Source: Spironucleus salmonicida
Taxonomy: Eukaryota
Length of the DNA stretch: 64,000 nt
Direction of reading: 5' to 3'
NCBI RefSeq assembly: GCF_000497125.1
Contig: NC_090602.1
Coordinates: 930,001-994,000 of the forward strand
The notes under the pieces: model-generated
What the model saw: the letters and a program-made list of their open reading frames with translations, nothing else
Database searches by the model: none
What the model was told of the DNA's origin: nothing
Made by a program: the position numbers and the translations under genes
Part shown: positions 4,884 through 64,000 of the stretch, one piece after another
Numbering within the stretch: position 1 is the stretch's first letter
How the letters are laid out: the number at the start of each line of letters is the position of its first letter

Positions 4884-5298
4884 TACTTAATTTAATTTCT
4901 TATTTAGTTATTCTGCAGCTAAAGTTTATCAGAAATCCTGCATTAAAAACTTTTAAACGCACTGTAAACAATATTTTAGAGTATTAAAAATCTAAATGTA
5001 ATACAAAATATCCATTACATCCGAGATTTATGAGAATACTACAATGATAGATACTATAAAAGTTAAATTGGCGTTTGATTGCATTTTAATTTACATGGAA
5101 ATGTGATAATGCGAGTTTTAAACATACTTTGAGGCTGAAGTATGGATAACTGTACTAACTAACATCTACAAGAATTCACAATAGCGCTAAAGGCGTCTAC
5201 TAAAACACCCAACTGAAGTAAAATTCGAACAAATGGTGCTATAATAAACGTTACAACTCGGTAAGTGGTCTCTTCACCTCAATCCGTACCACACCAAG

Positions 5299-6042
5299 TC
5301 AACCCCCTCCAGCCCCTGCACAGCTGTTGGTCATTATATCCTCAATCACCAGGTCCTACCCAGCCCTAAAAGGTACGTACTGGAGCGGCTCTCCTGAATT
5401 TTTCCGTGCGAGTTCTAGCTGCAGCTGCAACGCGCAGATTTCCCTGCTCTGCAGCGCGTCCCGGTGCTCCTGCGCTTTCACGTAATTCGTGAGCTTGCGC
5501 AGCGTTATCGACTCGAAGTTTTTGAGCCTTCTGGCGAGAGCCAGCAACTTGTTCTGGTCCACAGTGTCCTTTTAGAGAGTGATGCGCAGATCCTTTAGCT
5601 GCGCCACGACAGGCTGGAGGCCGGGGAAAGGAGGGAGAATTACGACCTTTTGGGCATGAAAACGGCTATTTTGCAGATCGTTTTCGCTGCTTTATGCCGC
5701 TAGCTACTGCCCCAGGAAATTGATGCGCTCCTGCTGACTGGAAATTATTTCCTCCGCCGTTTTCAGTTTTCCGCCGGACAGCTTGCTCTGCTGGTTCAGT
5801 TCCACTGCCTGCTTTATTTTCGGGATTAGCTACTTGAGCTGGTCCTGCAGCTCATCGTTACTTTCCTGCAGGTTGAAATTTTGCTCTTGCAGCTCTTTGA
5901 TGGCTTTTTGGTAGTTCTTTTCCTTCTATGTAAACTTCATTTCCGCTACTATGATATCCACTGTACTCAGTTTGTTGCGTTTGCGGTTCATATACGAGGC
6001 GTTCATGTTAAGCGCTGTTGGCGACAAAACCGCAGAGCGCAT
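5299..6042 (-). CDS. Hypothetical coiled-coil protein, 247 aa
   Basis: AAAATG start (MRSAVLSPTALNMNASYMNRKRNK…), E/Q/K-rich heptads, open under table 6 through the 5356-5562 track fragment to TGA at 5301-5299. Confidence 0.8.
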
Positions 6043-6099
6043 TTTCTGAAAATATAGTAATATACATATAATATAATTTTAAAATACCCTTTCTTTCTA
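6043..6099. promoter_or_regulatory. 57-bp bidirectional promoter (AT/TATA-like core, C-rich element before the + strand ATG)
   Basis: Divergent ATGs at 6042 (-) and 6100 (+); TATACATATAATATAA core and TACCCTTTCTTTCT immediately before the ATG. Confidence 0.6.
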
Positions 6100-7673: not shown

Positions 7674-7897
7674 TCTAATTTTATCATTGATTTCATGCCA
7701 AAATCATCCAGTTTTAGCAATTTACGGCATTTATCTCTAATTCTGTTGTGACCATGAGAAGCTGGCATGCATATTTGCATTCTCGCGACATGACTATACC
7801 ACATATCATACAGATGTTCAGATGCTGCCATAACTGCTTTCGCCCCGGCAGGCCCAATATTCCAGACCACCAATATGCGGAAATTTCACTTCGCAAA

Positions 7898-8404
7898 ATG
7901 AGCCTCGATGCGATTTTCCAGCAGATAGCGTACCAGATCGACACCGGTGCCACCACGCTCACTATAGACCATGTACTATAGCTGAAAACGATCCAGAAGA
8001 CCCCAGGCGTGCCACTCAGCCAGCAGTTCAGCGTGGCGGAGATGCCGGCGCTCGCCCCGAGCCCCGAGGCGGTGGGACAGCCAGCAGAGCTTTTGGATCA
8101 GCTCGCTGCAGTAGTACTAGGCAACCAATTTTTTAGCGTGCAGGTGGCGTCCCAGCAAGGCCAGAGCCGCCCGGTAGTGAGCACCTGCGCAGCGCAGATT
8201 CTGCACACGCTCATGGAGGTGCGCCGCCGCAGCGTCCCGGAGCGTCTCTGTGATTTCTTTGGAGCTGCACGCGGCGGGGAGGCGGAGGCGCTGCGTGCCG
8301 AGGTGCGGGAGCTGCGGGAGACGCTCGAAATGACGCAGGAGCAGGTGGATCAGCTCATCGCTGAGAACGACGAATTGCAGGCGCAGGTGAGCCTCGTTGT
8401 GTGA
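7898..8404 (+). CDS. Hypothetical protein with C-terminal coiled coil, 168 aa (alternative in-frame ATG at 7754)
   Basis: Track fragments 7748-7981 and 8009-8404 are in one frame joined by TAG=Gln. AAAATG at 7898 has the best start context. C-terminus …LRAEVRELRETLEMTQEQVDQLIAENDELQAQV. Confidence 0.7.
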
Positions 8405-8416
8405 GCAGTTCTAGCG

Positions 8417-8460
8417 CTTATATCACTTTTTACTTATATCACTTCGCACTTATATCACTT
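8417..8460. repeat. Three direct copies of CTTATATCACTT at a 16-bp period (intergenic)
   Basis: Copies start at 8417, 8433 and 8449, just downstream of the 8404 stop and ~300 bp upstream of midasin. Confidence 0.95.
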
Positions 8461-8700
8461 CGTTGCGCGATAACGCCGAAGGGCCACTAATTTTTTTTGT
8501 TTTAAGGTGTTCAATCTGAGCATTTTAGGCACCAAATTTGCCCAAATTTGCCCTGCCACAAACCGCGAATTCCGCTACCCACTTCTCTGATTTTTTATTT
8601 GCACTTTTCGCAATTCGCTCCGCCTCAGTTCCTTCCTTTCTTTGGACTTTAAGCCATTTTCCACTCGAAAACGACCCCTTCCATACACCACTCCTTAATT

Positions 8701-8754
8701 TTTTATATTCTATATAATACTATATAATAATCATATATCGCTCCCTTCCCGAAA
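8701..8754 (+). promoter_or_regulatory. Midasin core promoter: TATA-like repeats plus C-rich element
   Basis: TATATAATA twice, then CGCTCCCTTCCC-GAAA-ATG. Similar C-rich leaders precede the ATGs at 6100, 6681, 21044, 25879(-), 29839(-), 45255(-), 46932 and 48093. Confidence 0.6.
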
Positions 8755-11700
8755 ATGCCGTTCATTCACCCCCAGCACCAGCAGCTGCTTGCTGCGATCA
8801 CAGTACCCCACCCGATCCTGATAAGCGGCCCACCAGGCTCTGGAAAAACGTGCCTGGCCAACGCGCTGCGGGACGTCGTGCACCTGCCCCTCAGCGCTTC
8901 CCAGGACCCGAAGGACCTTTTCGGGCAGGTGACGTGCGGCCAGACGCCCGGACAGTTCTTCTTCCGCGCGGGGCCGCTGGCGCGCGCCGCAGAACGCGGC
9001 CAGACGGTCGTTATCGAGGCCGCGCCGTCGCTCGAAATCGACGTTTTTTCTGGCATAATTTGCGTTTTGGACGCGCTGGTGACCGGAAAATCGCAGTTTT
9101 AGCACGGAAATCGCGTTTTTCGCGTTGCGGAAACGTTCAGAATTGTCGTAATTTGCGCCCAAACGGCGAGGCTGCTGAAGAGCAATTTCGCCTCAAATTT
9201 CGTGCAGATTCGGACCCAAAATTTCACTGCGCGGCAGGTCCTGGAGATGGCTGGCGCGCCGTTCCAGCCTTTTGTCGAAATCCTGCGCCCGCTGGAAATG
9301 CCAATTTAGAACTTGCTGAAGGCGATAACGCGGCTCAGAAGCGCGCTGAATCGCCAGGTTTTGACGTTTAACGCGCAGTTTTTGCTCACTTCCGACATTA
9401 ACACCGTGGACGACAAATCGCGGTTTATGATCGTGTCTGAAATCTGCCAGTGCTTCGTTTTTCAGTTTCCGCCCAAAAAGCAGCAATCGCTCATCTAGCA
9501 GCTCGCGTTTTTATTTTTTTTGGACCTAGAGCACTTAAATACGTTCATTTTTGATTAAGAAATTCCAACTGATATAATCAATAATGAGTATTGCGTCGGA
9601 AACTACGTTTTCAAGCAGATTTCTCCCAGTAATTTCAACTTTTAAGCTCCGAATTTCGCGCTCACAAACTACACCAAAATACTGTTAAACTACATCCAAG
9701 CGGCAGTCTCAAACAACGAAAATCTGCTCCTTATATCATCGACAGGAATTGGCAAGACGTACACGCTCGAAATCGCAGCAAAAGCGGCTGGAAACGACCT
9801 CAAAATTGTAAATTTATCCGCCCAAACTGATATAACAGACCTCATCGGCGGCTTCAAACCGGTGAGTCAGCTAAGCGTCGCGCGGACGATTTACTAGAGT
9901 ACCATTGCATTAATAAATGAGGTTTTGGATGCAAAATCCACTTAAAATAACCAGTTTATCGAGCGCATTTTTGCACTTTTCACAGCCAAAAACTATGTAG
10001 AAATGAGCGCTAACTGCATTCGTTTCGTTCGTGCGTTTTAAGGCGCTAAAATGGCCGAAATTTAGCCTTAATAGCATGTTCTTATAAATGAAATCTGTCA
10101 AAATTGCGAGCAAATTCAGCGCTTTGAGAGCGCAGAATCCAAATTTTATTTTTAATTTAAGGAGGGTATACTGACATAAGCGCTGATATAAGGTAGCTTT
10201 ATCCTGTTCGATGAAGTAAATCTGGCATCTACAGAGGTTTTGGAATATTTGCAGCAAGTGCTTCAAAATGACAGTATCGTGATTCCTGACTTCTAGGACG
10301 AAAGTCGTAACTGCCAGGTAGTTCGGAAGCACAAGAATTTCCGAATTTTTGCTAGTATGAATCCTGCAAGCGATGTAGGCAAAAAGTAGCTTCCTGAAGC
10401 GATTTAGCAATAATTCACGGCTATTTATTTAGAAGAAATGTCGAACAAAGCTGATATAACGAAATTGATTCGGACATATTTATAGAATTAGACTATTGAT
10501 GTGGACGATATCGTGGACTGCTATTTTGAGCTTAAAGTGTGGCAGACCAGTAAATTGAAGACTGTAGCTTAGCAAAATCCTGTTTTTTCGATAAGGTTGC
10601 TATGTAGAGCTTTACGGTTCGCTTAAAGACATCATGTAAGTTTGTCTTTGTAGAGAGCCCTTTTCGAGGGGTTTTCCTTGTTTTTCACCAGCAATTTGGA
10701 TGAAGTATCGTCTGAAATGGTCAATACATTACTGCGCCAAACGTTCAAAATCACGCATAATAATTTACAGTTTAAACCAAATATCGAAAATTTGAAGTTT
10801 TTATATCAAAGTGAGCTTTATCATGTAATAGATTAGATTTATTTCCCGATAGGCCCTAAATTTTTGAAAACTAATGATTCCACTGTATCGATATTAGAGA
10901 ATCAAAATTAGTTTGTTCTAACTAAGTAAAATACTGTTTACTTGCATTAAATTATTAAGTCGCTCCTTTCTAACACCTCAGTATTGTTAGAAGGTGTGAC
11001 TTCGTCAGGAAAGTCATCTTTGGTTACATTTTTGGGGAAATAGCTAGGTTATGAAATTGTAAGAATTAATAATCATGAGAATACTGATTTGCAGGATTAT
11101 TTAGGTAGCTTTAGCCCTAATGAAGAGACTGGGTAATTAGAATTTTCCTATGGACCTTTAATTCGTGCCATGAAAGGAGGATATTGGGTTATTCTTGATG
11201 AATTAAATTTATGCAGTAGCGAAGTTTTAGAAGCTTTAAATAGGTTACTAGATGATAATTCTGAAATCTATATTTCTGAAACAAATGAATTTATTAAACC
11301 TGCTCCTGGTTTTGCACTGTTTGCAACGCAGAATCCACCAGGTATTGTAAATGGCTCCAGTTATGGAGGTAGAAAACAGTTATCTGAAGCGTTTAAAAAT
11401 AGATTTGTGATGATTGAAGTTAGTGAAATAACCAACCAAGAACTTGAGTTTATATTATCTAAACGAAATGGAAGTGACTAACTTCCTGAAAAGTTCATAA
11501 AAGGCCTTATAAATATTTGTTCAGATATCAGAGTAAAATTATAAAATACTGTTTCAGGTGTTAATGTTGATTTAGTTTCGTAGTAGTTGACATTACGTGA
11601 TTTATTCAGAGTTGCCGATAGACTTCCTAGTACTATTGATGAGCTGGGTTTAACTATATTTATGCTATTAGGTGAGCGTCAAAGATCGTACGATTTGAAG

Positions 11701-14700
11701 AAAATCGTTTTAGATATCATTAACTTACACTTGAAAATACAAATAACTTTTTCGGATATAAGCAATTATTACAATAATTTTACTATACCTTTATAAAATA
11801 TTATTAAAACTTCTCAGGCGTACTAACAATTTTAAAAGTTAGTATTCACACCATCATTTAACAGGATCTTTACATTAACATTACTAGCTCTCTAGAATCA
11901 CGAGAACCCAACATTAATTGGAGATTGTGGTGCAGGAAAAACACAGGTGGCTGAACTTATTGCCGTCGTTTTAAACATTTAAATGGAATCAATTAATCTG
12001 CACAAGAACACTGATGTTACGGATTTTGTAGGTCAGTTAAGGCCAGTTAGGAATAGAAGCGAAATTGAGGAGCTTATTACCTAGTATTCGGCAAAAATCG
12101 ATGTTAACGGCTTCTACGAAAAGCGGATTCAGCAGTTAAAGCTGCAACTAGACAAAATATTCACTTGGTACGACGGCCCCTTAGTCGATTGCATGATCAA
12201 GGGAAAACTTTTACTAGTAGACGAAATAAGCCTCGCGAGCGACTCGATTTTAGAGCGCTTAAACAGCGTATTTGAGACCTCACGCGAGCTCACAATCTCA
12301 GAAAAACCGTGCAGCGGCCAGGTAGTGACCAGAATTGTCGCGAACCAGCGCTTTTACTGCATCAGCACAATGAACCCCGGAAACGACTACGGCAAGAAGG
12401 AGCTCAGCCCGGCGCTCAGAAATCGAATGACGGAAATCTACGTCGAAGGCATAAGCTGCCCGGACGAGGTGGAGCTAATCCTCAGCCTGCGGCAGCCCAC
12501 GCAGGTGCTCGTAGACGAAATTCCGCTGTCCAGAGCCACGCGAATTTTCTTCGAAATCATCCAAAAGATGCGATCCGAGTTCTACCTGGGCCACAATTTC
12601 AGCTTCAGCATCCGCGACCTTTTGGGCATTTTCGATCACGTGAGCTACGTCCACAGGGCCGAAAAGTCGATTTCCGGGGCGCAATTCTTCTCAGAATTGC
12701 AGCTCTGCTACATCGACGGCCTGCAGGTCAAAATCTGCAGCCCCGACTCCGATTTCATCGATCAGCTCAAATAGTTCATTTTGGACGAACTAAAAAAGTC
12801 AATTCAAATTCAATTTTCCACTCCTATTTTGCAAAAAATCACGCTCTCAGAAACGTCACTTTAGCTCAATTTTCCGCCAATTGAGCTCTCGCTGGGGCCG
12901 CATTTCGACCTCGAGAAGTCGAATTCGCTCCTTTCCAAATTCTGCATAAACTCCCCGGGAACGCTGAAAAACGCTGCGATGATTTTGCGCGCAATTTCGA
13001 ACGCCTCAAATCGGCCGATTTTGCTCGAATCGGCCCCCGGCGTCGGCAAGACGTCGCTGGTGCAGCACCTGGCGGAGATTTCGGGTCGCAAAATCACGCG
13101 AATTAACCTCTCGGAGCACGTCGATTTGGCCGATTTGGTCGGTCAGGACCTGCCCTCCGAGAGCGGGATTTTCAAGTTTACGGCCGGCGTGCTGCTGCAA
13201 GCGATTTAGAGCGGAAATTGGGTCCTGCTGGACGAGCTGAATCTCGCGAATTAGGCCGTTCTGGAGGGTCTGAACGCGCTTTTTGACCACCGGAAACAGA
13301 TTTTCGTACCCGAAACGAACAGAATCGTCAAATTGCGGCCTGAAGTGAAAATTTTCGCAGCGCAAAATCCGGCCTGGCAGGGCGGCGGGCGCAAGGTGCT
13401 GCCACAGAGCTTCCTGAACCGGTTCAACTGCCTGTTTCTGCAGAAACTGCAGAGCGTGGATTACGAGTTCATTTTGGAGAAAATCGACGGGGGCGCCGTT
13501 CTGGGCCAAAATTTGGTGCGGATAATGCTCGAATTGCAGCGCACGGTGGGCGTCACTTTCGGCGAGCGCGGTGGGCCCTGGGAGATCAATTTGCGCGACG
13601 TTTACAGGGTATTGGACTTCGTCAAAGCGAGCGAAGTCTGCGCTGAAGATTTGTGGTTCGTGGTATGCAGCGTTTTGCTGCTGCGCTTCCGGGGCGAAAC
13701 GGACGCTGTTTAGGGGCTGAAGTGTATCTAGAGCGTTTTGGGGCCTGAAATTAGCCAAAAGTGCGTTTTCCCGCTAATAAGAACTGATTTGGTCAAAAAT
13801 GAGGTAAAATTCGGTAATTTGAGGTTTTCTGGGGACTAAAAGCTGCAAAAATTCGTCGTTGAGGACTACCCGCTGCTGTACTCGGTTTGCATGTCGGTTA
13901 ACGCAGCTACGCCCGTGCTTATGGTCACAATTGCTGACCAAAACGTCGTTATCGACCGCATTATATCAGAAGCCAGCCAGCTTTTCAACGAAAATTTACT
14001 CACAGTTTCGCTAGCCCAAAGTACTGATATAACGGATATTTTGGGCTGCTACGAGCAGCTCAGCCTGAACAGCATTCTGATCGAAATCGTGAGCATCCTC
14101 GAATTTTTGCTGCGCATAAACCAAATCGACTCGTATTTGTCGTTTAACCAGCAAATCTACAATCTGGTGACGAACAGCATTACGGAAAGCGAGGCAAAGG
14201 CGTTTTTCGCAAAATTGCACGCCTTTATCGCCCCAAACACGCACATTTTCGGCCTGAAACACTCGAAAATGCACGAAAATCTCACGCACCAGCTGGCGCT
14301 TTTCGCGAAGTACGAGAACGAGCGCATCCAGGGCCGCTTCGTGTGGGCCGACGGCGTCGTCACGAAGGCCATCGAATCGGGCCAGTGGCTGCATTTGGCG
14401 AACGCGAATTTCTGCTCCGCGTCGGTTCTGGACCGCCTGAATTCGCTGCTGGAGCGGGACGCCGTCCTGTACCTTTTCGAGCAGGGAACGAGCGAGATTC
14501 GGCAGCTGCAAATCCACAAAAATTTCCGCGTTTTCGTGTCCTACGACGCGAAATTCGGCGACGTTTCGCGGGCGATAAGGAACCGCTGCTTCGAGATTTG
14601 CGTGGACGGCCAGGGCTTCGTTTCTGAGCTTTTCGCCTCTGAGGCCGCAAATCGCGAATTTGACAATTTGCGGATAAACGCGATTTCCAGGGACGCCGCA

Positions 14701-17700
14701 GACCCCGTCGGGGCGCGCGTTTTGGAGCAGTTGGTTAAGGAATTCCCGATTTGCGGTAAATAGCAACTTTTGAGCGTTGCGCAGGTCGTGATGCAGCGTT
14801 TCTATTTTTAGAGTTTGTCTGATGAGCAGCAGGCGCTTCTTGTTGATATTGACAGTTCCAGCCATTCACGGTTATTGACGCTGCTGCAAACGACCAATTT
14901 GTAGAAATTCTTCTCGTTTTTGGTCTCGTACGAATTCCAGTCTCTGCAAAAATTCGGCGAGGAGCCGATTATAGCGAATTACAAGATCTCCAGAGGCGCG
15001 TCATTTGGTTAATAGCAGGAAATTTTTACCGGCTAAATTCTTGAAAATCAAGCTCAAATCGTCACAAATGAGTTCTGCAATTCTCTTCTCAATCTGGCTA
15101 ACTAGAACACGTTTGATATACTGGTTTTGGGTGAAGTTTCTAAGTAATTGGACTCCGAAAACCTCTTTTACCAGGTCCTGAAACATACAATACAGTACAT
15201 AAACCCGTAAGATCTGCAATTCCAATTTTAGAAGTTTTCCGCACTCCAGAAGCTCTCAAAGAGCGAAAAGTATACAATTAACGTATTTTTAAACTCGCTC
15301 TAGAACGAAAATCAGGCAAAATTCGCAGCTTTCCGTTCCCTTCTCGGGATCTCAAAATTCACAGTCAGAACGCCCCAATTCACACGATTTTAGAAGTTCC
15401 TTAACGACGCCAAATTCTCGGTCCAACAAGATACTTTTAAGTACACCACGACCTCAATTCTGGACTTCCTGCTGCGAAATGACAAGCTGCTCAAGTACGT
15501 CCCCGAAAAACACAATATCTTCGTCGAGAAAATGCTCGCGCATACGCTTTCAAACGTGCACTTTTTCGGTGAATTGACGCAGAAACCGTCAAAACTGAAA
15601 AATGGGCCGTTAACAAAAGTGCTAATCGGATTTTTTGGCGAGTACTTAAAAGTGTCAGTTTAGATGTAAAAATCGTTTTAAAACGATTTGCAGAACTTCT
15701 ACAATGTGGTTTACCACAGGAATAAGGAGGTAATAGGTAACTTTTAAGTTGATATAACAGAAAAAACAGAATTTATATTTGACATAGCGCGTAAAATTGG
15801 CGTAGGCTTTAACTAAAATATTACATATTTAAGTACCATTTAGCTCTTAGTTCAGATATTTTAGCATGCCGATTTTAGCAGCGTTTTCGATCAATCTTTG
15901 CTAGCTAACTTCAATGGCAAGTTCAACTCCGGGGTGCTCGAGATTTTGGCACTCCAGAAGCAAGTTTTTTAGTAGCATCAAATTCTGACGCAGAGCCGTA
16001 TTTTCACAGAAAAAACGTAGGCGGGCGACTTTTTAGCCCAAAAATAAGCCTTTTACACCAATTAGCTCCAGGAAGCGGCCGAAATGAACGTAGATAGACT
16101 GCAGTTCGACTAGGAATTTTACGAAGAGTTGTAGGGTCAAATTGAGCTTTTGAATATAAACAAGCTCTAGCAGCTGGTAACGCAGCCGCAAACCGACGTA
16201 TTTGTCCAGTATTTAAATTAGTACCAACGTAACATTCACTAATTTTTCGTTTTCCTGGCCACAAAACCTCTGGTTCTAGTCCTGAGCTACGCGGATATGC
16301 TGCTGCCGGTAATTTTCATTTTTTCGTCTTTGCAATTTTTCATTGACATGGCGATCGACGAGTTTTAGACGGTTAAAAACCGCGAAAAAGCGCTCAATTA
16401 ATCCACAGTTATCGACCTATTCTATGACGCAATCCCGCCGTACCAGGCAGTCAGATCGCTGACGCCCCAGATCGACCTCGCGAACGCGTATTACAGCGTA
16501 TTTTTGAACCTCAGCAGAGATGATTCCACATACAAAACGTTCGTTTTCAGGCATCAATATTTGTCGCTCAGCCAGCTCGCCTTTATCGCGTCTTCGCACG
16601 AGGAGGGCCAGCTCGCAGAAGTGCGTCGCGTGCTGCTCGAAAAGTCGCCTTTCCGCTCCCGCCACTTCGCGAAATCGAACGATTACGACGGGGAAATCGA
16701 GCGCCAGCTGGCGGAAATGTTCCCCAGCTACGGCGACGATTTCCGCAAAATCATTGACGAGGCGGCGCGTTCTGACGAGGTTTCGCAGGAGGCCAATTTT
16801 AGCGATTCCCACCGCTTCATTTGCGATATCGGAAAGCTGCTAAACGGCCAAAATTCGGCGAAATTCGACGACGTGGACGTCAATTTCGACCAATTTGACC
16901 TGCTAATGCGGCTTCTGACTTCGAAAATTTACGTTTAGGACCAGAATACGTGCCTTTTCGTACTGTCCAGCGCGGCTGCGCTCTACAAGAAATCGCAGCA
17001 GAATTCGACCAAAAACTCGACTATTCTGGCGCAAATCAAGGCCCACAAATCGCGCAGGAGCCAAATTTGCAAAAATATCTACAAAAATCCGTATCCGAGC
17101 GAGGTCAGCGCAGCGATTTCGGAGCTCTCGGCGTTCAAGTTCAAACTTGAAGCTCTCGTGGCTGAATTTCCGGCTGACGCGCGTTTGGAGCAGATTTCTG
17201 ATACTTTCACGCTCCTCTGCTCGCTGCCGGTTCTGCAGCCACTAGCGAAGTTCCTGACCGGTTTTGAGCAGCTTTTGAGCGTGATAATGCAGTGGAATGG
17301 AAACGCGCCGCAGCGCTTCCAGTTCGACACCCAGATCCTCACTGGCGTCAAGGCCACGATCGTGCACTGGCGCAGAATCGAATTGATGTCCTGGAACACG
17401 TTTTTCGACGATATCCAGCAGGAGCAGGCCGATTCAGCGCTCGTTGAGTGGCCACAGCTGCTGCTTGGCGCACTTACAGCCGCCTCGTCCAATTTCGTGG
17501 CCTACAAAGCCGATTTTGAGGCGCAATTTGCGACTTACATTTTGGATTCCACGTACGGCCAGTTTGGTACTCGAATCGAACTGATATAAGCAATAATTTA
17601 ACTGATATAACAGTCGAAACTGGAGTACAAAATCCAGGTTATTCAGTCGCTAATTTTTATAGTTTCGCGCTATTCGCGTTTCGGCGAATTCGTAGCGAAT

Positions 17701-40220: not shown

Positions 40221-40247
40221 GGTTTTTTGATTCAGTGAAAATTAGGT

Positions 40248-43768: not shown

Positions 43769-43788
43769 TGGTTTTTAATATCATTCGC

Positions 43789-54000: not shown

Positions 54001-57000
54001 ATAAATTAGAAACAAAAGGCATTAAAACTTAAATATAGATTATTAATGCTGAGGTATAACATTTTGAATATCCCGGTATCTTATTGTTTTACTTGCCTGA
54101 ACTTCTTACTATTGAAACATCAGTTGAGTTTTAATTTTCAAAAGCTTAGTAATTATCTGAGTAAGAGCTTAAACTAAAATCGTCATTTGCATCTAAGAAG
54201 TAGCGAGAGTAGTAATAAGATTCTAATGTAGTAGAAAATTATGAAATTATTTACCAAACGTCGTAAAAAGCTATTAACCTCAATAATGTATTCTAAAATT
54301 CAGTACTTATTAATATTGAATCAGATTCTCCATTAGCATTATACTCTTCTACATCGCCATAACATGGAAGAGCATTTTATGACATTTCAGTATTTTTAAA
54401 ATCACTGAGTCAGTCATATATTGATTTTACTTATAATGATATCTCTATCATTTATAATAGAGCTAAGGATACAGCAGATAATTTGGCTGTATCGATTATT
54501 ACTTTAGATTTCATACTAAGATAGTCTATTTCACTGGTAAACGATAGTAAATTAAATGCATAATTTCCTACATTAGTTGCATCCTTTGTTTGTGGAGCAT
54601 TCGGGTTAGATAAAAACAATTCATCTATATTATTCCAATTAGCTAAAACCTTTTAATTGTAAATAGATGCCGCATTATGTCATATAGGTATAATCAACAA
54701 AAACTCTACTTAACCATCCTATAAAAAATATAATTTCTAAAGATACTATACTGAGTTTTTATAAAGATATACAAATTAATAATTCTAACATTATGTATAA
54801 TTATTTAGTAGTCTTCATAGCTTACCTTTATAATGTACATTTGATATATTATTATGTTCTGAGTTTCTTAAGTAATAAAAACCTCTATTGCTAGTTACAA
54901 TTCATTATAGTTATTTACGAATATTCTTATCTAGTTATGTTGCTTTAAGGTCATAATAATTATTCTATGTAACAAACGGAGAGCAATTAACATCTGTACT
55001 TAGAGATATGATAAAAATTGATCCATCCCAGCCTAAGCCTTTAATTGCAGTATGCCCTAGTAGTAAAGAAGAATTAATGCAATTAATTGATAAATTATTT
55101 GGGTTCTAATTGGCATATCCTATTATATAAGATGATTATGGCTTACCTTATTATTAGTATGATGTTAAAAATACGCCAAATATTATTTTATGTATAGATT
55201 TAGTTTTGTATAATTATTTGTCACAATTTTAAGTAATGAGAATATTTAATCATAGATAATTATTATTACCAAATATAGAAGGTGCTGAAGGATCTAGAAA
55301 AACATTATTGGCAGGAATTTCGGTTGACCCAATTAATATTTCATAATTAGCTTTAAATTTATAAGATTTATGGATGGTAAATGATAATAATTTGAAGTTT
55401 TAAACTTCCTCACAAGCAGTGTTACTACTAATTAAGTAATATTAAAGCAAAATGTTGTTAAGTACAATAAAAGATGGAATTACCTAGCAAGTATAATAAA
55501 GATCAATTGTGCTGCCTTCGTTTATAAATGGTTTATTTACTATTTTATTTGATTAAGTTACATCATTATTCAATATTGGTAGGTCATATGAAGAATTATT
55601 AATAATTAGAGGTATTCTATACTTTTTCTTAATACGGTTCAAATTTATAACTCCTTAGAAAAGAAGTACATAAAATCATTTTCTTAATTTAGCTATGGAT
55701 TAAATAAATAACTTTATGAATTCTGAGCCAAGAAGAAAATAAATGGTCTCTGATATGATTTCGGATTAAAATACTAGTCTTGGAAATGATGCTATGACCA
55801 GAAAAGTAGCATAAATGTATAGCGAAATTTAACATACTTAAAAGCTTGAGATGGCTAGTAAGAATAATATTACTCTAAATGACGAATAATAAACATTATA
55901 ACCTAAGGATTAGATAAAAATTATAAATGATGGTTTATCTATTAATAGAATGAACGTATAGGAACGTATTAGTCCTTATATAGATGTAGCAGGATTTGTA
56001 CAAGAGGATATGAAAAGTATCGAAGATCATGTTAAATAGTTAACTTCGACAAATAATATTAAGCTAAACTAAGCTATTTAGTTAACATTAGCCAAATTTT
56101 CTGACAAACCAGCATCATCTAAAGGATTTGGAGCTATGGGGAGTTTAAATTTTGAATTAAGTTCATCATTTATTTAAGACTCATTTTTGTAGACAGAATC
56201 AACTAAAGAAGCATTTATAAATTTAATTAAACCAGTAACAGCTGCTGTATGGAATGCTGCATGTTTGTATTTCTTAACAATTACCAATTCAGGAAAATGG
56301 TAATGGTTTACATCTAAAAACGGAATGCAAAAAGTGCTTTAATAAAGATATGACTAATTTAGATAGTAGTTAGAAACTTTAGATAGAATATCTATTTTAA
56401 CTACTTAAAGTATGTTAGGTATGTCAATTCTTATTGCAAACGAAGAAAACTATCCGAGTTTAAATAAAGACTGTCTTAAAGATTTATAATTGCATACCTA
56501 GCTTTCAATCTAAAATATTGATCATAACTTATTGCCAGATGAGGTTAATATATTTGTTAGATAATTATTTTTAACATTAAAAACTACACTTCCCGATTAT
56601 TCAACAGAAAGTTTTACTTATCTTCTCTATTAAGGATCTTTAAATTCGAATAAAGAATCAAAATTTTATCGTTAATTTTAGAGCTAAATAGTATTTTAGT
56701 AATACAAATTAGGATAAGGCATTCTTAAAAATACAACAATTAAGTCAAATAATTATACATATGATCAAGATGTAAAAGAAATATGTAATTAAACAATTTC
56801 ATTTAGATAATAAAAAATGGTTGAAAGAGAAAACCAATTACGATAGGAGAGGAAGAAGAATACCAAAGATTAAGAATCAGACTTATATAATAGACTCAAT
56901 AAGAATAATAGCTAAACACATCAGAACACAGCTAATGATACCCCTTTGAAGCAATAATAAATTAATCCTTATGATTCTGATGAAGAGAATTCATCTCATA

Positions 57001-60000
57001 TTTAGACTAAGAAGTAATTTTCATCAGTTGATTTAGTTTAAGATGAAATGGAGGAACTAGAGTAAATAGATATTTAGTTAGTCCTATAAAGATAGATTCC
57101 TTAGGAAATATTATCAATAGAATCGATTTCCGATGATACTTTATATTTTGACCCTCACAGAACAGCCATTATTGTTACTTTAGCTAGTTGTATGATAACA
57201 CCGGTAACTATATGTTTATCTGGAGAAAGAGAAAGTGGAAAATCTATTTTAATAGATGTTGCTAAATTCGTTGTTAGAGATATATGTGATAGTTCATTGC
57301 TGCTATTAGGAGATCTTTCATCCCCTTCAACTAGCAATTCTATGCGTAGTGCAATTGCATCTAAATTTTCGCTTAGAAATTATTATTTTGCTAGTAAAAG
57401 TAGATACGAGAATGCAAACTTAAGTGATGTTAGTACCCTTATTAAGCTTGAGCATGATGAAAGAATTCTAGATTACTAGTATAATTTGTGTTTCCCAACT
57501 TTCCATGTTCATGCTAGTGATGTTAACGACTAAGAGATATCTAGTTATGTTGTTTAAATATTAAGAGATCATATGATATAACTAGAGGGAGATCTAAATA
57601 ATAAGCTAATTTCCTCTATTTAGATTGATAATTAATATCAGTAACTTTCTGGTGTTGTTACTTTGTCAGATGTTAGTTTCATTATTGAATGCAGTCAGAA
57701 ATCTCCACTTAAATCGCTAGCAGCGGTTGATATTCAGATACCACCTATCACAGAACAATTTATTTTTGATCTTATCAGCTATGATTTTTAAGATGAAAAT
57801 GATAATTGGCTTAAGTAGTTTGTACATGGAATACAACTTGTAAAAACCAGCCTAAACTAAGGGATTCAATCAAATTTTAGAATTATTAAGTAAATTTATA
57901 CCAATAAATTATTAACTTGCTCTGCAGCTTCACATTCTGGAGAAAAACTCATTGATAAGATTAACATTTATGAGTCTAATGGTGTGGAAATCGAGGATGC
58001 AACAACAACCTCTCCCGTTACATAAATATTCAAAAATATGTTTGATAAAGAGCTTAATTAAGTAAACATCCATTCATATTTTTACAGTTTAAGGAAAATT
58101 GACTAAGTAGACCAGCTACAAATTGAAGCCATTGCTGAACGACTTGCCAGCTTATGTTTGCTTGGTAATTTAAAATCCAACGCCTGGTAGCCGAAAACTA
58201 AACAACAATTACTGCAAAAATAGTTTATTTAAACGCCTTGGTCCGACTCCTCTATCTTGTTAGAGCAAAACTTTTCACTCTATCCAGCTTGGGAAACTTT
58301 TATTATCAACGAGTCAATTTTAAATGCTAAACGACCTGGAAATTATGATCCAGAACCGCTGGTTAACCAATTTACGCTAAAAATACAAAATATGTAAAGC
58401 ATAGCAATCCCAAATTCGCTAAACTCTCCACTGTTCTAAATCCCAGGTCTCCAAGTTAAAGAACTGGCAATTTTTTCCAATTACTACCAGCTAAATAGCT
58501 TCTTATTCTTCCATTTTATGGAGATTTATCGTCTCAGAGGCCAATCACACGAACCCTTCCTTTTCACGAAGCTCATTGAAATTTACTTCAGAACAAACTT
58601 GCGAAAAGAGCGAAACAAGGCGCGTTTGTTGTCGATCATGCAGTTTGGCAACAAAATCCGAAATAAAAACAACCTAAGTGGAATTCTGGCGGAGGACGAC
58701 ACGCTGAGCAGCAAATATTACATCCTGGGCCAGGGCTACAAATTCGCTGGCTATCTGATTACAGAATATCAGAAAACTGATATTTCTGTAGAATTACAAC
58801 AGCTAGCAAACGAGGAGAAGAAACTTATGAACAAGCAGGACCTCGCACAGGAACTGTAGAGCAGCAAGGGTAATTTCGGCGGATTTTCGCTGATTTCTGG
58901 CCTCAGCTTGAAGCCGATGAAAGTCTACGTAAAACTCAATAATTCGGGATCAGATTGCTACGAGAAGCTGGTGCTCCAGTACAACAACCTGCTGGGCTCG
59001 CAGCTGATCAATTTTTAACCAAAAACGCAGGAAAACCTCTAGAACAAGCACAAACAGGCAGACAAGTCCAAATTCAAGGTCTACACGCAGGAGGAGATCG
59101 GCCAGCTCTTCGGCGCACAGCCGTTCAGCTCCTTCGGCAGCTCCAAGAACGAGAAGTTCCTGGTGGACCTCAAGGGCATTTACCTGCAGGTCATCAACAA
59201 GCAGCAGGACACGTCGTTTTTCAACGATTTCGAGCTCGAAATCTACAAAAACCTCCTCCAAGTATACAAAATCATCGAGAATTCGCCGGATTTCGAGCTC
59301 AAAAACTCGCAGTTTCTGATCATTTTGGTGCTGCTGCGGATGTGCGTTTGCGCGTCACTGGGGGTCAAAACGGCGGCGGTGCTGCCGAAGAACCTGACCA
59401 AAAAGTCGCAGTTCAAGACCGCGATCGGCTTCGATTTGATCTCTGGCCTGGGCTCGTTCCTGCCCTCGAAGGTGGTCCCGAGCTCACGCCGCATCGCGCA
59501 GCTCCCGTACCAGCTGAGCAGCGCGGGGCAGCTGCGGTCGCGGATCGACGGCTACGGCAGAACGCTGCAGCGCGGCGGCGGGCAGCTCGCGCAGCTGCGC
59601 AACAAATCGAAGCTCTCGAACACTTTCAGCTCCAAATCGACCGTTCACGTCGGCGCTCAGAGCTTCGCAATTCAGTCGCGCACGTCGCAGGTGAGCTGCG
59701 CGGGCACGTACAACGTGCAGCGTAACGTGAGCCTGCCACAGAGCGAGATATACGCGTCATTTTAGGCGCCTTTCAAGGACATCACGCTCGTGCTGCCGAC
59801 GTCGATTTCGTCGTTTAAATCGCCTTCCGACGTGTCGATCTGGACGCTCTTTTCGCGGATTTTGGAGCCACTCTCGCAGCTGCCGACGATTTTCGACTAG
59901 GAGGAGCTCCAAACGGTCATCCAGCTCGCCTCCTTCAACTTCGAGATCGACGCGATAATGGACCAGAAGCTGCTCTCCTGCCTGCTGGCTGCGAACTTCT

Positions 60001-63000
60001 AAGTCATCCTTGTCGACGACTCGCCCACGAACTTTCAGGCCCAGAAACCGCTCAAAATCAGCGATTTCGGATCGATCAAATCGCCCATTTTGACACTAAT
60101 TAACAATTTACCGTAGAAATATTCGGAAATATTGAATTAATATATATAATAATAACAAAAATCGCAGATTAATCAATCAGACAAAATGCTCAAAGCGTTC
60201 GCTGGCGCAAATTCGCGCCAGCAGAACCAGTTCGACCTCTACGTGAAATCGAAGACCGCGCAGTGCAAGAACAACGTTTTCAGCGTCTCCTCGCGCGATT
60301 TGTTGGCCCTTTTCAAGCTCTCGAACTGCCAGAATCTGACGTTCGAAACGCAGAATCTGAGCGATTTGGACCCGCAGTTCCTGCGGCAGCAGTTCGCGAT
60401 TGCGAGCGTTGCGATCTACCAGCACGTCTCGGTTTACTCGGCGCGCATTAACGTCAGCCTCGCAAAATTCACGCAGTTCTGCGCGACGCTCACGAACGAA
60501 ATTTTCGCAAAAATCGACAAGTTCTTCACGCAGAAATTCCTGATTGCGAACCTGCTCAAGTTCTACGCGCTGCTCGCTGAGCCCGTGAAAGCGCCGGTCA
60601 AAAACGTCGATTTGGGCGTTTTTAGCACCGAAACGATCTAATAACAGGTAATGCAGAACCTGCAGAACCAATTGAACGTTCTGAAGCAGAAGAAGCAGAA
60701 CGCGCCGTCGGAGCGCTAAATCCAGCTCCAGACCGCCGCCGGAGAGTCCGTTTTCATCCGCAACTACCTGCACACGATTTCAGAAATCCTGCATGATGAG
60801 CTGCAGAACCAGATTCAGGCCGCTAAGGCAGCGCATTTTAACGCGATTTGCTGTGCTGCAAAAATCCTGTTCAGCGAAATTGACGAAAATCGTGCGTTTT
60901 AGGACATCCTGAGCGGGGTTTTCGGCGACGTCGGCTACAACGTCTAGAATTTGATTAACGAGCTCAAGAGCAACTCGGATATCGATATTTACAACATTCT
61001 GCTAATCTGTATTTTGCGGTCACACGGCATCGATTGTGACCTGCAGATGGGCCATAAGGCCGAAAGCGAGGAAAACATGTACTATTTAGGTTAAAATGCG
61101 CTCACTTTCGGTAAGAATTTGTTCATTTACGAGCTTGCAGAAACGCTTAGTTTGGGGTGGTCGATTTACCAGATTTTGAACGGGTTCAATATTCCCTGGA
61201 AGCCTCATGATCCGGAGTATAGCCAGCTGAACAGCGTGATGCTGAGCTATGTGTGCGGAATTCGGCTGTTTTTCGTTGAAAATGAGGTGGCGATGCCAAC
61301 TTCGGTTTTACTGGCTGCTAAAAATCAGTATAGCGGTGATGACGACCAGCTGATGAATAAGTGCATTTCCAAGGTCTAGCAGATCAACATGAACGATTTC
61401 TAGTACGAAGCAGGCGTTTAGAAGGTCTTAGCTGCTTTGCAGTCGGAAGACAACATAATTCTCATCACGAACGTGACATCGGAGTGCTAGAATTTACCTA
61501 TGTTCCATATTTTGCGCTCTCTGCTGCAGCTACTACAGCTCTCAAAATTTCAAAAAGACTAGTTGTCCGAATTCTTAGGTCACAAATTCACCTCCCCGCG
61601 GTCTTCCAGCGAAATCCCCATCGTACTGGGGTTTGAGGGCAATATCAACGTTTTTATTGAGGACATCGGACTGCCCACGCAGCAGTTCATCGACAGCTGC
61701 ATTTTCATCACTACGAAAGGTACCCAAAATAAGAGCATTCAGTTCAAGCAGAAGTATATCCAATAGAGTCTCATAGAGAACGTTTTTGGCGAAAAGTACG
61801 GAATTCGCACACGAAACGAGGACGTGAAGCTCTGTTAGTGCGTGATTCGCAAGCTGGTGGAGGACACGCTCTCCATCTTCACCGGCTACATCAAGACGTA
61901 CATTCTGAGTCAAATTTACACGCCGCATGAGCTGGCCCAAATCAAGCTCGACAACCACAGCATTCAGCGCATGTTCGCACTGACAGCGCAGGGCGAAATG
62001 ATGAGCAAAACACTCCTTTACAGCTCGTTTTTGGTTAACAAAAACGAAGATTTGAAGCGCGATCTGCAGACCATTATCGACAAATTCAAGCAAATCTCCA
62101 GCAGCCTCGTCACCAAAGCCGCGCTTTTGAGCACCGCGGAACAGACGCAGGACCAGGCGGAGGGCTAGAAAATCAAGTTTATCGAGAATTTTATCGTCAA
62201 AAATCAAGTGCAGCAACTCGCCAGCGAGCTCAGCTACGCGATCGGCTGCACTGGGATTTGGCTCAAGCAGTTCGTACGGCACCACATGCCCGTGCAGTCG
62301 AACACGGAGAGCGACTCGCTACATTTGATGTTCGTCAAGGTAAAATCCGATATGGAGGTGTACAAAACGAAAATCGTTGAGGCGTACAAAGATGTTCCGC
62401 GAGAGAAAATCCAGAAAACGTAGCAGCAGACGCGATTTCTGGTGGACGATTTTCCAATTCTTTACCACGTGAAAAACGACTATATGACGTTCAAAAAGCA
62501 CTTAATTTCGCTATTTCTGCCGTTTTTGAACAAGCGCCTTTTCAGCATTTTCCCGGTCGAATACGCCAACGCGGTGTGGCTGTGCAATTCCCTGCTGTTT
62601 TTAACGCTCACGAACATGATAACGCAGCAACAAGACAACCAAATATCAACTGGCGAATTGGAGGCTTTTATGCGTATTTAGCAGCTGATGAGCAAGGACA
62701 CCGTGCGGCTCATAACGAGTTACCAGCTAAGCTAAACGTTCTCGCAGACGAGTAATTTCAACCTATTGAAGCTCTACAACGAATCACAGTTGCAGAACCT
62801 CTTCACGATCGACAATGTGAAACAAATCATCCCCGAAATCTGCTCAATTTCGTCCTAGCTCCAATTCGCGTGGCTGCAGCTCAACATCATCGCCAGGTAC
62901 TCAAAACAGATGCACCAGTCGATGCCCTGGTTCATAACGAACCATGCGAGCCTTGTCAGCCTGTGCTAGGTCAACAACCCGTTTCTGGGTATCATTTACT

Positions 63001-64000
63001 ACTTTGCAAGCAAGAACCCGCTGGCCCAGAGCGGGTACAACGACTTCCTGAATCAACAGTTTAAGATCATCGAGACGAGCAAAACCAAGCTCATCGAGGT
63101 GCCCCCGAACTTCCGCGTCCCGGACGCGGTTGTGTTCTATCTAGGCTTCTGCATGGCAATAGCACTGAAGCCGGAGAGCATTTTGGACAACATGGAGCTC
63201 ATGGCGCAATCGATGTCGAACCTGTTCGGCTCCAGTCCGCTGTAGCTTAAATTTAGCGCGCAGGCTAACGCAGGGACGAATTCGACTGCAATTTTGACGT
63301 GCGAGGATGCGAATTTGGTTCTCACAGCCATCCAGTGCGAGGTGTTCGTTAAGCCTAGTTTCGACCAGCTGCTGGCGTTGCTGGGCCAGGCTACTGAGGT
63401 CGATAATGCGCCGTTCCTGTCGGATAACGTTTTCTCGACATACAACCTCATCGCTTTGGCATTTTAGAAGCTCATTTCGTACGAAAATCGCGATAACAGC
63501 GTCCAGTCGCCTTTGAGCGTAAGCGTAATTTATTATGATTCGTGCTTCCAGCCTGATTAATTTCTGTTTTTCTGCTACAAAACGCTGCCAGCATGTTACA
63601 AGCTGCCTGCTAAGCTTTTTTAGGTCAAGAATTTGACACAGAGTCTGGCGATGAATTTTGCAACCGTTTTAAACGTAAATCCGGAGATGGACGGCCAGTA
63701 AACCCTGCAGTCAGTTATCGATCTCGTTAAAATTAAATCTTCTTTGTTGCGATTTAACCTACTGTATCCTATTTTCATATTGATTCCGTCGTCTAATTAG
63801 AGCATAAGTTTGAATAAATATTAGTAGCAGGGCGCGTTGACGTCAAATTAGGATGATTTTTCTAATAAACTAGCAGATTTGCAAAATTTACAGAAGCTAA
63901 ACTACATATATTTGCAGAAACCGTAAACTCTGAAACAAGCTTTTTTGCATGTTTTCTGTGTCAGCCAAATTTCAGTAAATGACCAGATTAACTAAAGAAT
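48093..64000 (+). CDS. 3'-partial giant (>5300 aa) highly divergent dynein-heavy-chain-like protein
   Basis: ATG after TACCTTTCCTTT; eleven track fragments (50511-62442) share the frame, which is still open at the window end. Dynein-like order of segments: linker-like region, AAA1-like block (KIGNHWLG…LLALSQKQCIFMVG…LALSRLLFRRFITV…AAGYIV), P-loop GERESGKS at 57222, INVFIEDIGLP at ~61640. The ORF is confident; the family call is moderate. Confidence 0.6.

What the first reader, a model, noticed from the sequence alone, without database searches (positions are those of the whole stretch)
5160..63450. GC-rich islands that ignore gene boundaries and flip strand skew at their centre (candidate replication origins or recombination hotspots)
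Seen: the AT-rich background is punctuated by GC-rich islands at roughly 5.35-5.9, 7.9-8.4, 8.75-9.5, 12.2-14.8, 16.4-17.6, 23.4-24.8, 28.1-28.7, 39.1-40.8, 41.7-42.1, 43.6-44.8, 50.4-51.2 and 58.9-63.4 kb. Several lie inside single ORFs, where Gln codons shift from mostly TAA to mostly CAG. On the + strand the left flank is repeatedly C/A-rich (e.g. 5200-5350, 23000-24300, 50400-50700, 58100-59300) and the right flank G/T-rich (5600-5950, 24790-25150, 51230-51400, 61000-61400), whatever the strand of the gene. Known: upward GC/TA skew switches mark bidirectional origins, and GC-biased gene conversion raises GC at recombination hotspots. Inference: these islands are fixed origins or double-strand-break hotspots written into the coding DNA.
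Basis: partly seen in the sequence, partly recalled or inferred. Interest (0 to 1): 0.72.

Follow-up and report, generated by a model that had tools for sequence, protein, structure and literature searches.

The report
GC-rich islands in a diplomonad chromosome
An AT-rich protist chromosome carries kilobase patches of GC-rich DNA inside and at the tail ends of genes, which look most like the footprint of repeated GC-biased DNA repair during recombination and not like replication origins.

Summary
The GC islands are real. All 12 listed stretches have GC 0.46-0.62 against about 0.27 elsewhere. Third-codon GC rises from 0.18 to 0.78 and Gln codons switch from 66% TAA to 83% CAG. Amino-acid content and spacers shift too, so a regional AT-to-GC drive is at work, not domain conservation or expression.

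The window comes from an intron-poor diplomonad that reads TAA/TAG as Gln; its nearest named relative is Hexamita.

The strand-skew "flip" is only partly real. Skew correlates with the GC slope (z about -3), and the C profile leads the G profile by about 200 bp. At silent sites, however, the four long + strand genes carry the effect (9-10 of 12 edges). It is absent or reversed in - strand genes (1 of 5 edges). The flip point is rarely central, and the skew fades within 1 kb.

Islands do not ignore genes. They favour 3' ends (9 of 12 genes) and sag in spacers.

Best reading: recurrent GC-biased gene conversion zones (confidence 0.45). Origins are poorly supported (0.07).

The parts
5251..6050 (.). 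GC island (GC 0.51) that coincides with the whole small coiled-coil gene G2 (5299-6042, - strand)
   Evidence: HMM segment; gene frame and translation; 50-bp GC profile at the gene's 3' end
7751..9500 (.). Composite GC island (GC 0.54-0.57). It covers a small GC-rich gene G3b (about 7898-8404, +), a C-rich spacer 8405-8754 (GC 0.39), and the 5' end of midasin from its ATG at 8755
11901..15650 (.). GC island with three sub-peaks inside the midasin ORF (GC 0.49)
15901..17900 (.). GC island inside the midasin ORF (GC 0.48)
23401..24750 (.). GC island at the 3' end of G5 (21044-24781, +). It ends at the stop codon and is followed by a C-poor G/T-rich non-coding stretch 24790-25150
28101..28700 (.). 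GC island over the 3' end of the AAA ATPase gene (28280-29839, -) and the spacer beyond it
39051..40950 (.). GC island (GC 0.54, peak 0.63) spanning the 3' ends of two convergent genes: G10 (34902-40220, +) and palmitoyl-protein thioesterase (40248-41234, -). The 27-bp spacer between them has GC 0.30
   Evidence: poly(A) at 40230 in RNA-like contigs
41651..42200 (.). GC island at the 3' end of G12 (41577-43079, -)
43601..44800 (.). GC island over the 3' two-thirds of the 5'-nucleotidase gene (43789-45342, -)
50351..51450 (.). GC island wholly inside the giant ORF G14. It is the cleanest silent-site skew flip: third-position GC skew is -0.41 at the rising edge and +0.30 at the falling edge
58401..63700 (.). 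Large composite GC island (several sub-peaks, GC 0.48-0.51) inside G14
8755..20916 (+). Midasin gene, 4053 aa, with no in-frame TGA. It holds AT-rich and GC-rich blocks. Its best-conserved stretch (AAA_5, aa 743-884) lies in AT-rich DNA
48093..63998 (+). Giant ORF G14 (more than 5302 aa, runs off the window, no Pfam match). It carries two island regions

Best explanation
The islands are stretches where a regional force pushes A:T pairs to G:C pairs at every kind of site, as far as selection allows. The most likely force is GC-biased gene conversion in zones where homologous repair recurs at the same places over long periods. The repair could be between the genome copies of this multi-copy, two-nucleus organism, in rare sex, or between duplicated segments. 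These zones lie in gene bodies, above all at 3' ends and at several points in very long genes. Short spacers hold promoter and poly(A) signals and stay AT-rich under constraint.

Shown here: the composition pattern, its independence from protein conservation, and the lineage-specific shift of amino acids. Inferred: that the force is conversion bias and not mutation bias, and that it is tied to recombination. The weak, short-range strand asymmetry (C enrichment lying about 200 bp 5' of G enrichment in the long + strand genes) would fit one-sided heteroduplex or repair synthesis around break sites. It is not general in this window and is not needed for the explanation.
For: GC3 goes from 0.18 to 0.78, with parallel but smaller rises in GC1 and GC2. 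GARP residues rise from 9% to 27% and FYMINK residues fall from 41% to 22%. Spacers flanked by island coding DNA have GC 0.30-0.41, against 0.16-0.28 elsewhere.

Islands switch on and off inside single ORFs. The most conserved part of midasin is AT-rich (58.7% identity to Hexamita, against 40% in the GC class). At aligned midasin positions the window has GARP 0.212 where Hexamita has 0.147 in the GC class, and 0.146 vs 0.157 in the AT class. The shift is therefore local and lineage-specific.

CpG is not depleted: observed/expected is 1.27 in islands and 0.87 outside. Islands are not palindromes, repeats or RNA genes.

In the related or same species S. salmonicida, duplicated regions have GC 44.7% against 30.7% for the rest of the genome, and the authors invoke gene conversion near surface-protein genes (passages of PMC9509377). 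Part of this window (40.0-45.3 kb, three islands) has double depth in a DNA run. It has a second copy that is identical over 1.47 kb in one gene and 2.6-3.5% different in the next, a mosaic typical of conversion.
Against: No direct evidence of recombination or of a W-to-S fixation bias was obtained. The 33 W/S differences between the window and its second copy are balanced, 17 vs 16. At strongly conserved midasin columns the window's derived residues are not GARP-biased even in islands (8 GARP vs 25 FYMINK of 58). Two of the five islands in the stretch laid with reads are single-copy, so ectopic conversion cannot explain all of them. GC falls sharply at start and stop codons, which could also point to a coding-specific cause. 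Known meiotic hotspots in yeast sit at promoters, not at 3' ends (recalled). Only one 64-kb window with about 11 islands was available.
Confidence: 0.45

Rival explanations
1. A regional mutation bias without a conversion bias. Error-prone or strand-asymmetric repair synthesis (or transcription-linked damage) at recurrent sites makes A:T-to-G:C changes directly. For example, G misinserted opposite T during gap filling would give both GC gain and C/A-rich left, G/T-rich right flanks.
For: It rests on the same composition facts as the best explanation. The sign of the asymmetry in the + strand genes (T-to-C excess on the 5' side, A-to-G on the 3' side) matches what nascent-strand G:T mispairs would give (inference). 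A constant lag of about 200 bp regardless of island width suits a short-range repair process.
Against: A 16-fold change in the W-to-S / S-to-W balance would be a very strong local mutational effect. The asymmetry is missing in - strand genes. Measured human break-associated mutation asymmetry has the opposite sign, with C>N and A>N on the single-stranded 3' tail (passages of PMC7615360).
Confidence: 0.2
2. The islands are fixed bidirectional replication origins, and the skew switch records leading- and lagging-strand asymmetry.
For: The sign is right. Negative GC and TA skew upstream and positive downstream is the pattern at bacterial and human origins and at human CpG islands (passages of PMC2817419). 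The whole-window slope-skew correlation is significant.
Against: The skew departs from background only within about 0.5-1 kb of an edge, not across inter-island distances. The flip point is at relative position 0.3-1.8, not at the centre. It is absent or reversed at silent sites of - strand genes (1 of 5 edges). It would imply about 11 origins in 64 kb. No G-quadruplex motif was found (0 matches on either strand). An origin by itself does not explain GC3 of 0.78.
Confidence: 0.07
3. Selection on the coding sequence or the mRNA favours GC-rich codons toward 3' ends and in certain blocks. Possible targets are codon choice, mRNA stability, or avoidance of cryptic AT-rich promoter or poly(A) signals.
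For: GC drops sharply at start and stop codons, and spacers stay far below the neighbouring GC3. There is a 3'-end preference in 9 of 12 genes. Two small genes are GC-rich throughout.
Against: Spacers inside islands are still raised (0.30-0.41 vs 0.16-0.28). Amino-acid content shifts toward GARP relative to the Hexamita orthologue. Blocks switch within one transcript, so expression level cannot be the variable. No known selective reason would turn 66% TAA into 83% CAG over 1 kb and back.
Confidence: 0.1
4. Mosaic ancestry: GC-rich patches were copied in by homologous recombination from a GC-richer relative or a divergent paralogue.
For: Some edges are sharp (for example 5001-5251 and 8701-8751). 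There is a second, partly divergent copy of 40-45 kb. One 30-nt loose end of it, compared by eye, appears AT-richer than the window's island sequence at the thioesterase 3' end.
Against: Reading frames and domain order run on unbroken. Many islands rise and fall gradually (39-41 kb). There are no within-window duplicates. This reading would need about a third of the window to be imported in 1-5 kb patches.
Confidence: 0.03

Closest known systems
GC-rich peaks attributed to GC-biased gene conversion at stable recombination hotspots (yeast GC3 peaks, birds, dogs, gerbil GC islands)
   Same: Kilobase-scale GC enrichment is strongest at silent sites, spills into amino-acid content, and cuts across gene structure. 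Gerbil papers were seen only as a search listing and abstracts. The yeast, bird and dog cases are recalled.
   Different: This is an organism with no described meiosis. The amplitude within single genes is very large (GC3 0.18 to 0.78). The islands prefer 3' ends over promoters. No recombination map or substitution polarity is available here.
Human CpG islands with bidirectional strand asymmetry (Polak and Arndt 2009, PMC2817419, passages read)
   Same: These are GC- and CpG-rich islands (CpG o/e 1.27 here) with T-to-C excess upstream and A-to-G excess downstream, which is the same sign as in the + strand genes here.
   Different: The human asymmetry runs for hundreds of kb and starts at promoters or origins. 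Here it fades within 1 kb, the islands avoid 5' ends, and the effect is not seen in - strand genes.
Upward skew jumps at replication origins (bacteria; human skew domains, as summarised in PMC2817419)
   Same: The direction of the GC and TA skew change is the same.
   Different: Here the effect is short-range, off-centre, dependent on gene strand, and far too dense.
GC-rich duplicated regions of Spironucleus salmonicida (Xu et al. 2022, PMC9509377, passages read)
   Same: The lineage is the same or closely related. Higher GC (44.7% vs 30.7%) occurs where copies can convert each other. One island-bearing stretch here is also present in two copies.
   Different: The paper describes duplicated regions of at least 2 kb, surface-protein neighbourhoods and chromosome ends. 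In the passages I saw it does not describe islands inside single-copy housekeeping genes. At least two islands here are single-copy by depth.

Membership tests
Replication origin marked by skew inversion | Upward switch of GC and TA skew at a defined point | tested here: inconclusive
   Right-minus-left skew is positive in 8 of 11 islands, with p = 0.04, 0.085 and 0.02. The switch point lies at relative position 0.3-1.8 of island length.
Replication origin marked by skew inversion | Skew persists along the replicon arm to the next terminus | tested here: not met
   The meta-profile returns to the background skew (about +0.05 to +0.1) within 0.5-1 kb of the edges.
Replication origin marked by skew inversion | Seen at neutral sites irrespective of gene orientation | tested here: not met
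   At third positions, + genes fit at 9-10 of 12 edges and - genes at 1 of 5. The interaction has z = -2.3 and -2.7.
Replication origin marked by skew inversion | Measured initiation of DNA synthesis | not testable with these tools
   No nascent-strand data were available.
gBGC recombination-hotspot GC island | GC enrichment greatest at silent sites | tested here: met
   GC3 goes from 0.18 to 0.78, against GC2 from 0.22 to 0.42.
gBGC recombination-hotspot GC island | Also affects non-coding DNA and amino-acid content, against selection | tested here: met
   Spacers in islands have GC 0.30-0.41, against 0.16-0.28 elsewhere. GARP is 0.212 vs Hexamita 0.147 in the GC class only.
gBGC recombination-hotspot GC island | Excess of W-to-S over S-to-W substitutions or polymorphisms at high frequency | tested here: inconclusive
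   The only comparison possible was the window against a second copy in RNA-like contigs: 17 S/W vs 16 W/S differences, unpolarised.
gBGC recombination-hotspot GC island | Coincidence with measured recombination or conversion | not testable with these tools
   No map exists in the tools. The mosaic identity of the second copy is only a hint.
CpG-island-type bidirectional promoter | Located at transcription starts | tested here: not met
   First 450 nt of genes have mean GC3 0.33, and upstream 200 bp have GC 0.16-0.40. Islands sit at 3' ends.
Codon-usage domain under translational selection | Confined to synonymous sites and tracking expression | tested here: not met
   GC switches within single transcripts. 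Amino acids and spacers shift as well.

The most novel reading that the evidence does not exclude
The islands are fixed zones where homologous recombination or RNA:DNA hybrids start DNA synthesis, in a lineage with a pared-down origin-recognition machinery. One structure would then be both a conversion hotspot (GC gain) and a local initiation site (origin-like C/A to G/T asymmetry). It would sit mainly at gene 3' ends, where transcription ends. This would give sequence-level footprints of the recombination-dependent, origin-independent replication proposed for related metamonads (passages of PMC8516963).
Probability: 0.07. Interest if true: 0.85.

Novelty: new variant of a known kind. Interest (0 to 1): 0.5.

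Why it matters
Diplomonads are textbook "possibly asexual" eukaryotes with two nuclei and very low allelic heterozygosity. How their genome copies are kept alike, and whether they recombine, is an open question.

If kilobase GC islands with GC3 near 0.8 in a 27% GC background are conversion footprints, they are a ready-made, sequence-only map of where homologous repair has acted for a long time. That map can be tested with population data and break maps.

The islands also matter for annotation. Gene callers using the standard code see ORFs only in islands, because TAA/TAG are nearly absent there (the public 322-aa fragment of the 517-aa nucleotidase). Composition-based tests for transferred genes or for selection would also be misled.

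Two genome papers on S. salmonicida, seen as passages only, and four of my literature searches did not turn up a description of such intragenic islands in diplomonads.

Tried and rejected
- Ciliate origin. This was my first guess from the code. It was rejected because the nearest named proteins are from Hexamita, Dysnectes and Spironucleus, and Pfam domains align in one piece without introns.
- Whole-genome test. No genome is held, so nothing could be tested beyond 64 kb.
- Earlier findings.
- Protein atlas.
- Palindrome or inverted-repeat explanation of mirrored flank composition. Only short chance-level arms of 14-30 nt at 70-87% complementarity were found in four island regions.
- Dispersed repeat or paralogue explanation inside the window. 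All 48 self-hits lie in the G1 tandem repeat at 1-3300.
- G-quadruplex origin motif. 0 matches on either strand.
- Overlapping antisense genes as the cause. 6 of 6 antisense ORFs in islands have no Pfam match and read like antisense translations. They are open because TCA codons vanish in islands (inference).
- RNA genes. 0 Rfam matches and 0 tRNAs.
- RNA evidence. No listed holder is on record as RNA. Runs X5-X7 behave like poly(A) RNA, since contigs end in A-runs plus adapter. The contigs are 3'-biased and unstranded, so they cannot show internal or antisense starts. Parts without cover carry no weight.
- A sense-strand (transcription-oriented) explanation of the flip. A minus-to-plus skew switch reads the same on both strands, so gene orientation cannot explain it. 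The + versus - gene difference found therefore means either heterogeneity among few loci or an outside direction such as fork movement. This is unresolved.
- Pratto et al. 2014 on skew at human hotspots. Not held under two ids tried. I make no claim from it.


Full report
WHAT THE WINDOW IS

Read with TAA and TAG as Gln and only TGA as stop, the 64 kb resolves into long uninterrupted ORFs:
- a tandem-repeat protein at 3-4883 (+)
- midasin at 8755-20916 (+, 4053 aa)
- G5 at 21044-24781 (+)
- an SPFH protein at 26911-27900 (-)
- an AAA ATPase at 28280-29839 (-)
- G9 at 31341-34877 (-)
- G10 at 34902-40220 (+)
- palmitoyl-protein thioesterase at 40248-41234 (-)
- G12 at 41577-43079 (-)
- a 5'-nucleotidase at 43789-45342 (-)
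- an ORF of more than 5302 aa from 48093 to the end of the window (+)

Pfam domains align in single stretches, so introns are rare or absent. The nucleotidase's nearest named relatives are Hexamita inflata (35%), Dysnectes brevis (33%) and Spironucleus salmonicida (32%, probably a paralogue). Midasin's nearest named relative is Hexamita inflata at 48%. The window's own midasin is on record on a 1.61-Mb contig with its name withheld. RNA-like contigs end in poly(A) 10 nt after the G10 stop codon.

The window therefore comes from a hexamitine diplomonad, possibly Spironucleus or a close relative. That last step is inference: window GC is 35.3% and the DNA runs hold 12-13 Mb of contigs, against 33.4% and 12.9 Mb reported for S. 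salmonicida (PMC3916229, passages). No whole genome was available.

THE ISLANDS ARE REAL AND ARE A SILENT-SITE PHENOMENON

An HMM gives 11 main islands in a background of 0.24-0.31. I binned 18,086 codons by the GC of the surrounding 300 bp. From the lowest bin to the highest:
- GC3 climbs from 0.18 to 0.78, GC1 from 0.28 to 0.60 and GC2 from 0.22 to 0.42.
- Gln codons go from 66% TAA and 2% CAG to 2% TAA and 83% CAG.
- GARP residues rise from 9% to 27% and FYMINK residues fall from 41% to 22%.

The islands are not conserved domains. The best Pfam match in midasin (AAA_5, aa 743-884) lies in AT-rich DNA. Identity to Hexamita midasin is 58.7% in the AT class and 40% in the GC class. At the same aligned columns the window is richer in GARP than Hexamita only in the GC class (0.212 vs 0.147; AT class 0.146 vs 0.157). 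The shift is therefore local and specific to this lineage.

CpG is not depleted: o/e is 1.27 in islands and 0.87 outside. The islands are not inverted repeats, not copies of one another and not RNA genes. They carry no G-quadruplex motifs. Long antisense ORFs that open up in islands have no family match (6 of 6) and are best seen as a by-product of codon choice.

THE ISLANDS DO NOT IGNORE GENES

- GC3 of the last 450 nt exceeds that of the first 450 nt in 9 of 12 genes with both ends in the window (means 0.53 and 0.33, Wilcoxon p = 0.016).
- Two small coiled-coil-like genes (5299-6042 on the - strand, about 7898-8404 on the + strand) are GC-rich from end to end.
- GC changes abruptly at the midasin ATG and at the G5 stop codon.
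- Spacers embedded in islands fall to GC 0.30-0.41, including the 27-bp spacer between two convergent genes at the top of the 39-41 kb island. This is still above spacers in AT-rich surroundings, which have 0.16-0.28 apart from one 24-bp spacer at 0.38.

So a regional force acts on coding and non-coding DNA alike. It is seen fully only where constraint is weakest.

THE STRAND SKEW

The eight example flanks are biased as stated. The general pattern has statistical support.
- The correlation between local GC slope and GC skew is -0.19 to -0.27. For TA skew it is -0.15 to -0.22. Both lie about 2.5-4 sd below circular-shift nulls.
- The correlation survives removal of the low-complexity stretch 17.9-25.5 kb.
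- The C profile matches the G profile best when shifted by +175 to +250 bp. The T deficit leads the A deficit by 100-300 bp. This holds in the whole window and in all six subsets tried.
- The trend is monotonic at 4-fold degenerate sites. GC skew runs from +0.17 on steep falling slopes to -0.07 on steep rising slopes, and TA skew from +0.11 to -0.17.

1. Per island, only 8 of 11 have the G centroid to the right of the C centroid, although 10 of 11 do so for the A and T deficits. The half-against-half test is marginal, with p = 0.04, 0.085 and 0.02.
2. The switch point is not central. It lies at 0.3 to 1.8 island lengths from the left edge.
3. The departure from background skew fades within 0.5-1 kb.
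4. At third codon positions the four long + strand genes carry the effect.
 - Permutation z is -3.4 to -3.8 in + genes, against -0.6 to -1.6 (GC skew) and -0.2 to +0.4 (TA skew) in - genes.
 - The best lags are +288 and +312 bp in + genes, against -192 and -120 bp in - genes.
 - In + genes 9 of 12 (GC) and 10 of 12 (TA) edges fit; in - genes 1 of 5 and 1 of 5 fit.
 - The regression slope term is -0.48 +/- 0.14, with a strand-by-slope term of -0.32 +/- 0.14. For TA skew the terms are -0.22 +/- 0.11 and -0.34 +/- 0.12.

Two of the example flanks are mostly amino-acid composition: the second positions of an N/S/Q/P/T-rich tail, and the first positions of a - strand coiled coil. The cleanest silent-site flip is the 50.35-51.45 kb island in G14, with third-position GC skew of -0.41 then +0.30.

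A minus-to-plus switch reads the same on both strands. Gene orientation as such therefore cannot create or cancel it. The + versus - difference means either scatter among few loci (about 17 edges) or dependence on an outside direction such as fork movement. The window cannot decide between these.

WHAT THIS MEANS FOR MECHANISM

The sign of the asymmetry (C/A-rich then G/T-rich) is that of replication origins and of human CpG islands (PMC2817419, passages). It is opposite to the mutational asymmetry measured around human meiotic breaks, where the single-stranded 3' tail loses C and A (PMC7615360, passages).

An origin reading is nevertheless poorly supported. The effect is short-range, off-centre and not strand-independent. 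It would need about 11 origins in 64 kb, and an origin does not explain a 16-fold change in the AT/GC balance.

A lag that stays near 100-300 bp in the eight islands where it has the expected sign, whatever the island width, is what one expects if break sites are spread over the island and each leaves a short, one-sided, strand-specific footprint such as heteroduplex repair or gap filling. This is inference. Simple models can give either sign.

The GC enrichment itself is best explained by GC-biased gene conversion at recurrent sites of homologous repair.
- It acts on all site classes.
- It overrides weak selection on amino acids.
- It is specific to this lineage.
- In S. salmonicida, duplicated regions, where copies can convert each other, have GC 44.7% against 30.7% for the rest of the genome (PMC9509377, passages).
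- In the window, 40.0-45.3 kb (three islands) shows double depth in a DNA run. It has a second copy that is identical across the nucleotidase gene (0 differences in 1471 nt) but 2.6-3.5% different across the two neighbouring genes, with ends that no longer align at 95%. That is a conversion-like mosaic.

Against this reading:
- The W/S differences between the copies are balanced (17 vs 16).
- Two islands in the same 20 kb are single-copy by depth.
- At conserved midasin columns the derived residues are not GARP-biased.
- Nothing here measures recombination.

A pure mutation-bias version, selection on mRNA, and mosaic ancestry remain open at lower odds.

COMPARISON WITH WHAT IS KNOWN, AND NOVELTY

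GC peaks at stable hotspots (yeast, birds, dogs, gerbils) are the closest known kind. The present case differs in four ways: the host lineage, the amplitude inside single genes, the preference for 3' ends, and a weak local strand asymmetry.

The two S. salmonicida genome papers report mean GC, a coding-versus-intergenic difference, and higher GC in duplicated regions, near cysteine-rich protein genes and at chromosome ends. This is from the passages returned by my term searches; I did not read the papers in full and did not open their supplements. Searches for ciliate or diplomonad GC islands, gBGC in Giardia, and gene conversion in Spironucleus found no description of intragenic islands in housekeeping genes.

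I rate this a new variant of a known kind. It is of moderate interest, limited by the single window and by the lack of any direct test.

VERDICT

The composition observation is confirmed. The skew observation is partly confirmed. The origin reading is not supported. The hotspot or conversion reading is plausible and is the best on offer, at confidence 0.45.

Noticed in passing
window 1-3100 (within ORF 3-4883, +): The protein is made of near-identical tandem units with a period of roughly 350 bp, read off the alternating HMM segments. GC oscillates between 0.33 and 0.45 inside each unit. All 48 self-hits of the window lie here. Weak Pfam hits (Colicin-K immunity, DUF5442) have no significant single stretch and are probably repeat artefacts.
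   Followed up: partly
window 40000-45340: DNA run X1 has word depth 15-24 here, against 10-12 elsewhere in 36-56 kb, and its contigs break up. RNA-like contigs of the thioesterase and G12 differ from the window at 15-48 sites per contig (about 2.6-3.5%) and stop aligning at 40491, 41129 and 41687. Those of the nucleotidase and G10 are identical. A second, mosaic copy of this segment exists in the genome.
   Followed up: partly
window 24790-25150: The non-coding stretch just after the G5 stop codon is almost free of C (17 C in 361 nt; GC skew +0.71). It is rich in GG/GT motifs. Its function is unknown.
   Followed up: no
window 40218-40250: Convergent genes G10 and the thioesterase are 27 bp apart. 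RNA-like contigs carry poly(A) at 40230, 10 nt after the G10 stop, and another A-run at 40495 inside the neighbouring gene. The 3' UTRs are therefore very short and the transcripts may overlap.
   Followed up: no
window 46945-47390: One RNA-like run (X7) shows a 446-nt contig of depth 95, and X6 has some depth in the same bin, in a stretch with no convincing ORF. Both overlapping ORFs lack Pfam matches and there is no Rfam match. It may be a small unannotated transcript.
   Followed up: partly
window 43792-44757 (nucleotidase, residues 196-517): Apart from the window's own reading, the only public protein identical to this gene is a 322-aa fragment that covers just the GC-island part. TAA/TAG codons are nearly absent in islands, so a standard-code gene caller sees ORFs only there. 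This is an annotation trap for this genome.
   Followed up: partly
window 8405-8754: The spacer upstream of midasin is strongly C-rich on the + strand (GC skew -0.49 in 8501-8750). At GC 0.39 it is the GC-richest of the spacers longer than 300 bp.
   Followed up: no
window 13143-14984, 15655-17367, 39263-40201, 50268-51443, 61542-62642 (- strand): Long antisense ORFs open up across islands, some in codon register with the sense frame. None has a family match. They probably reflect loss of TCA codons in GC-rich coding DNA.
   Followed up: partly
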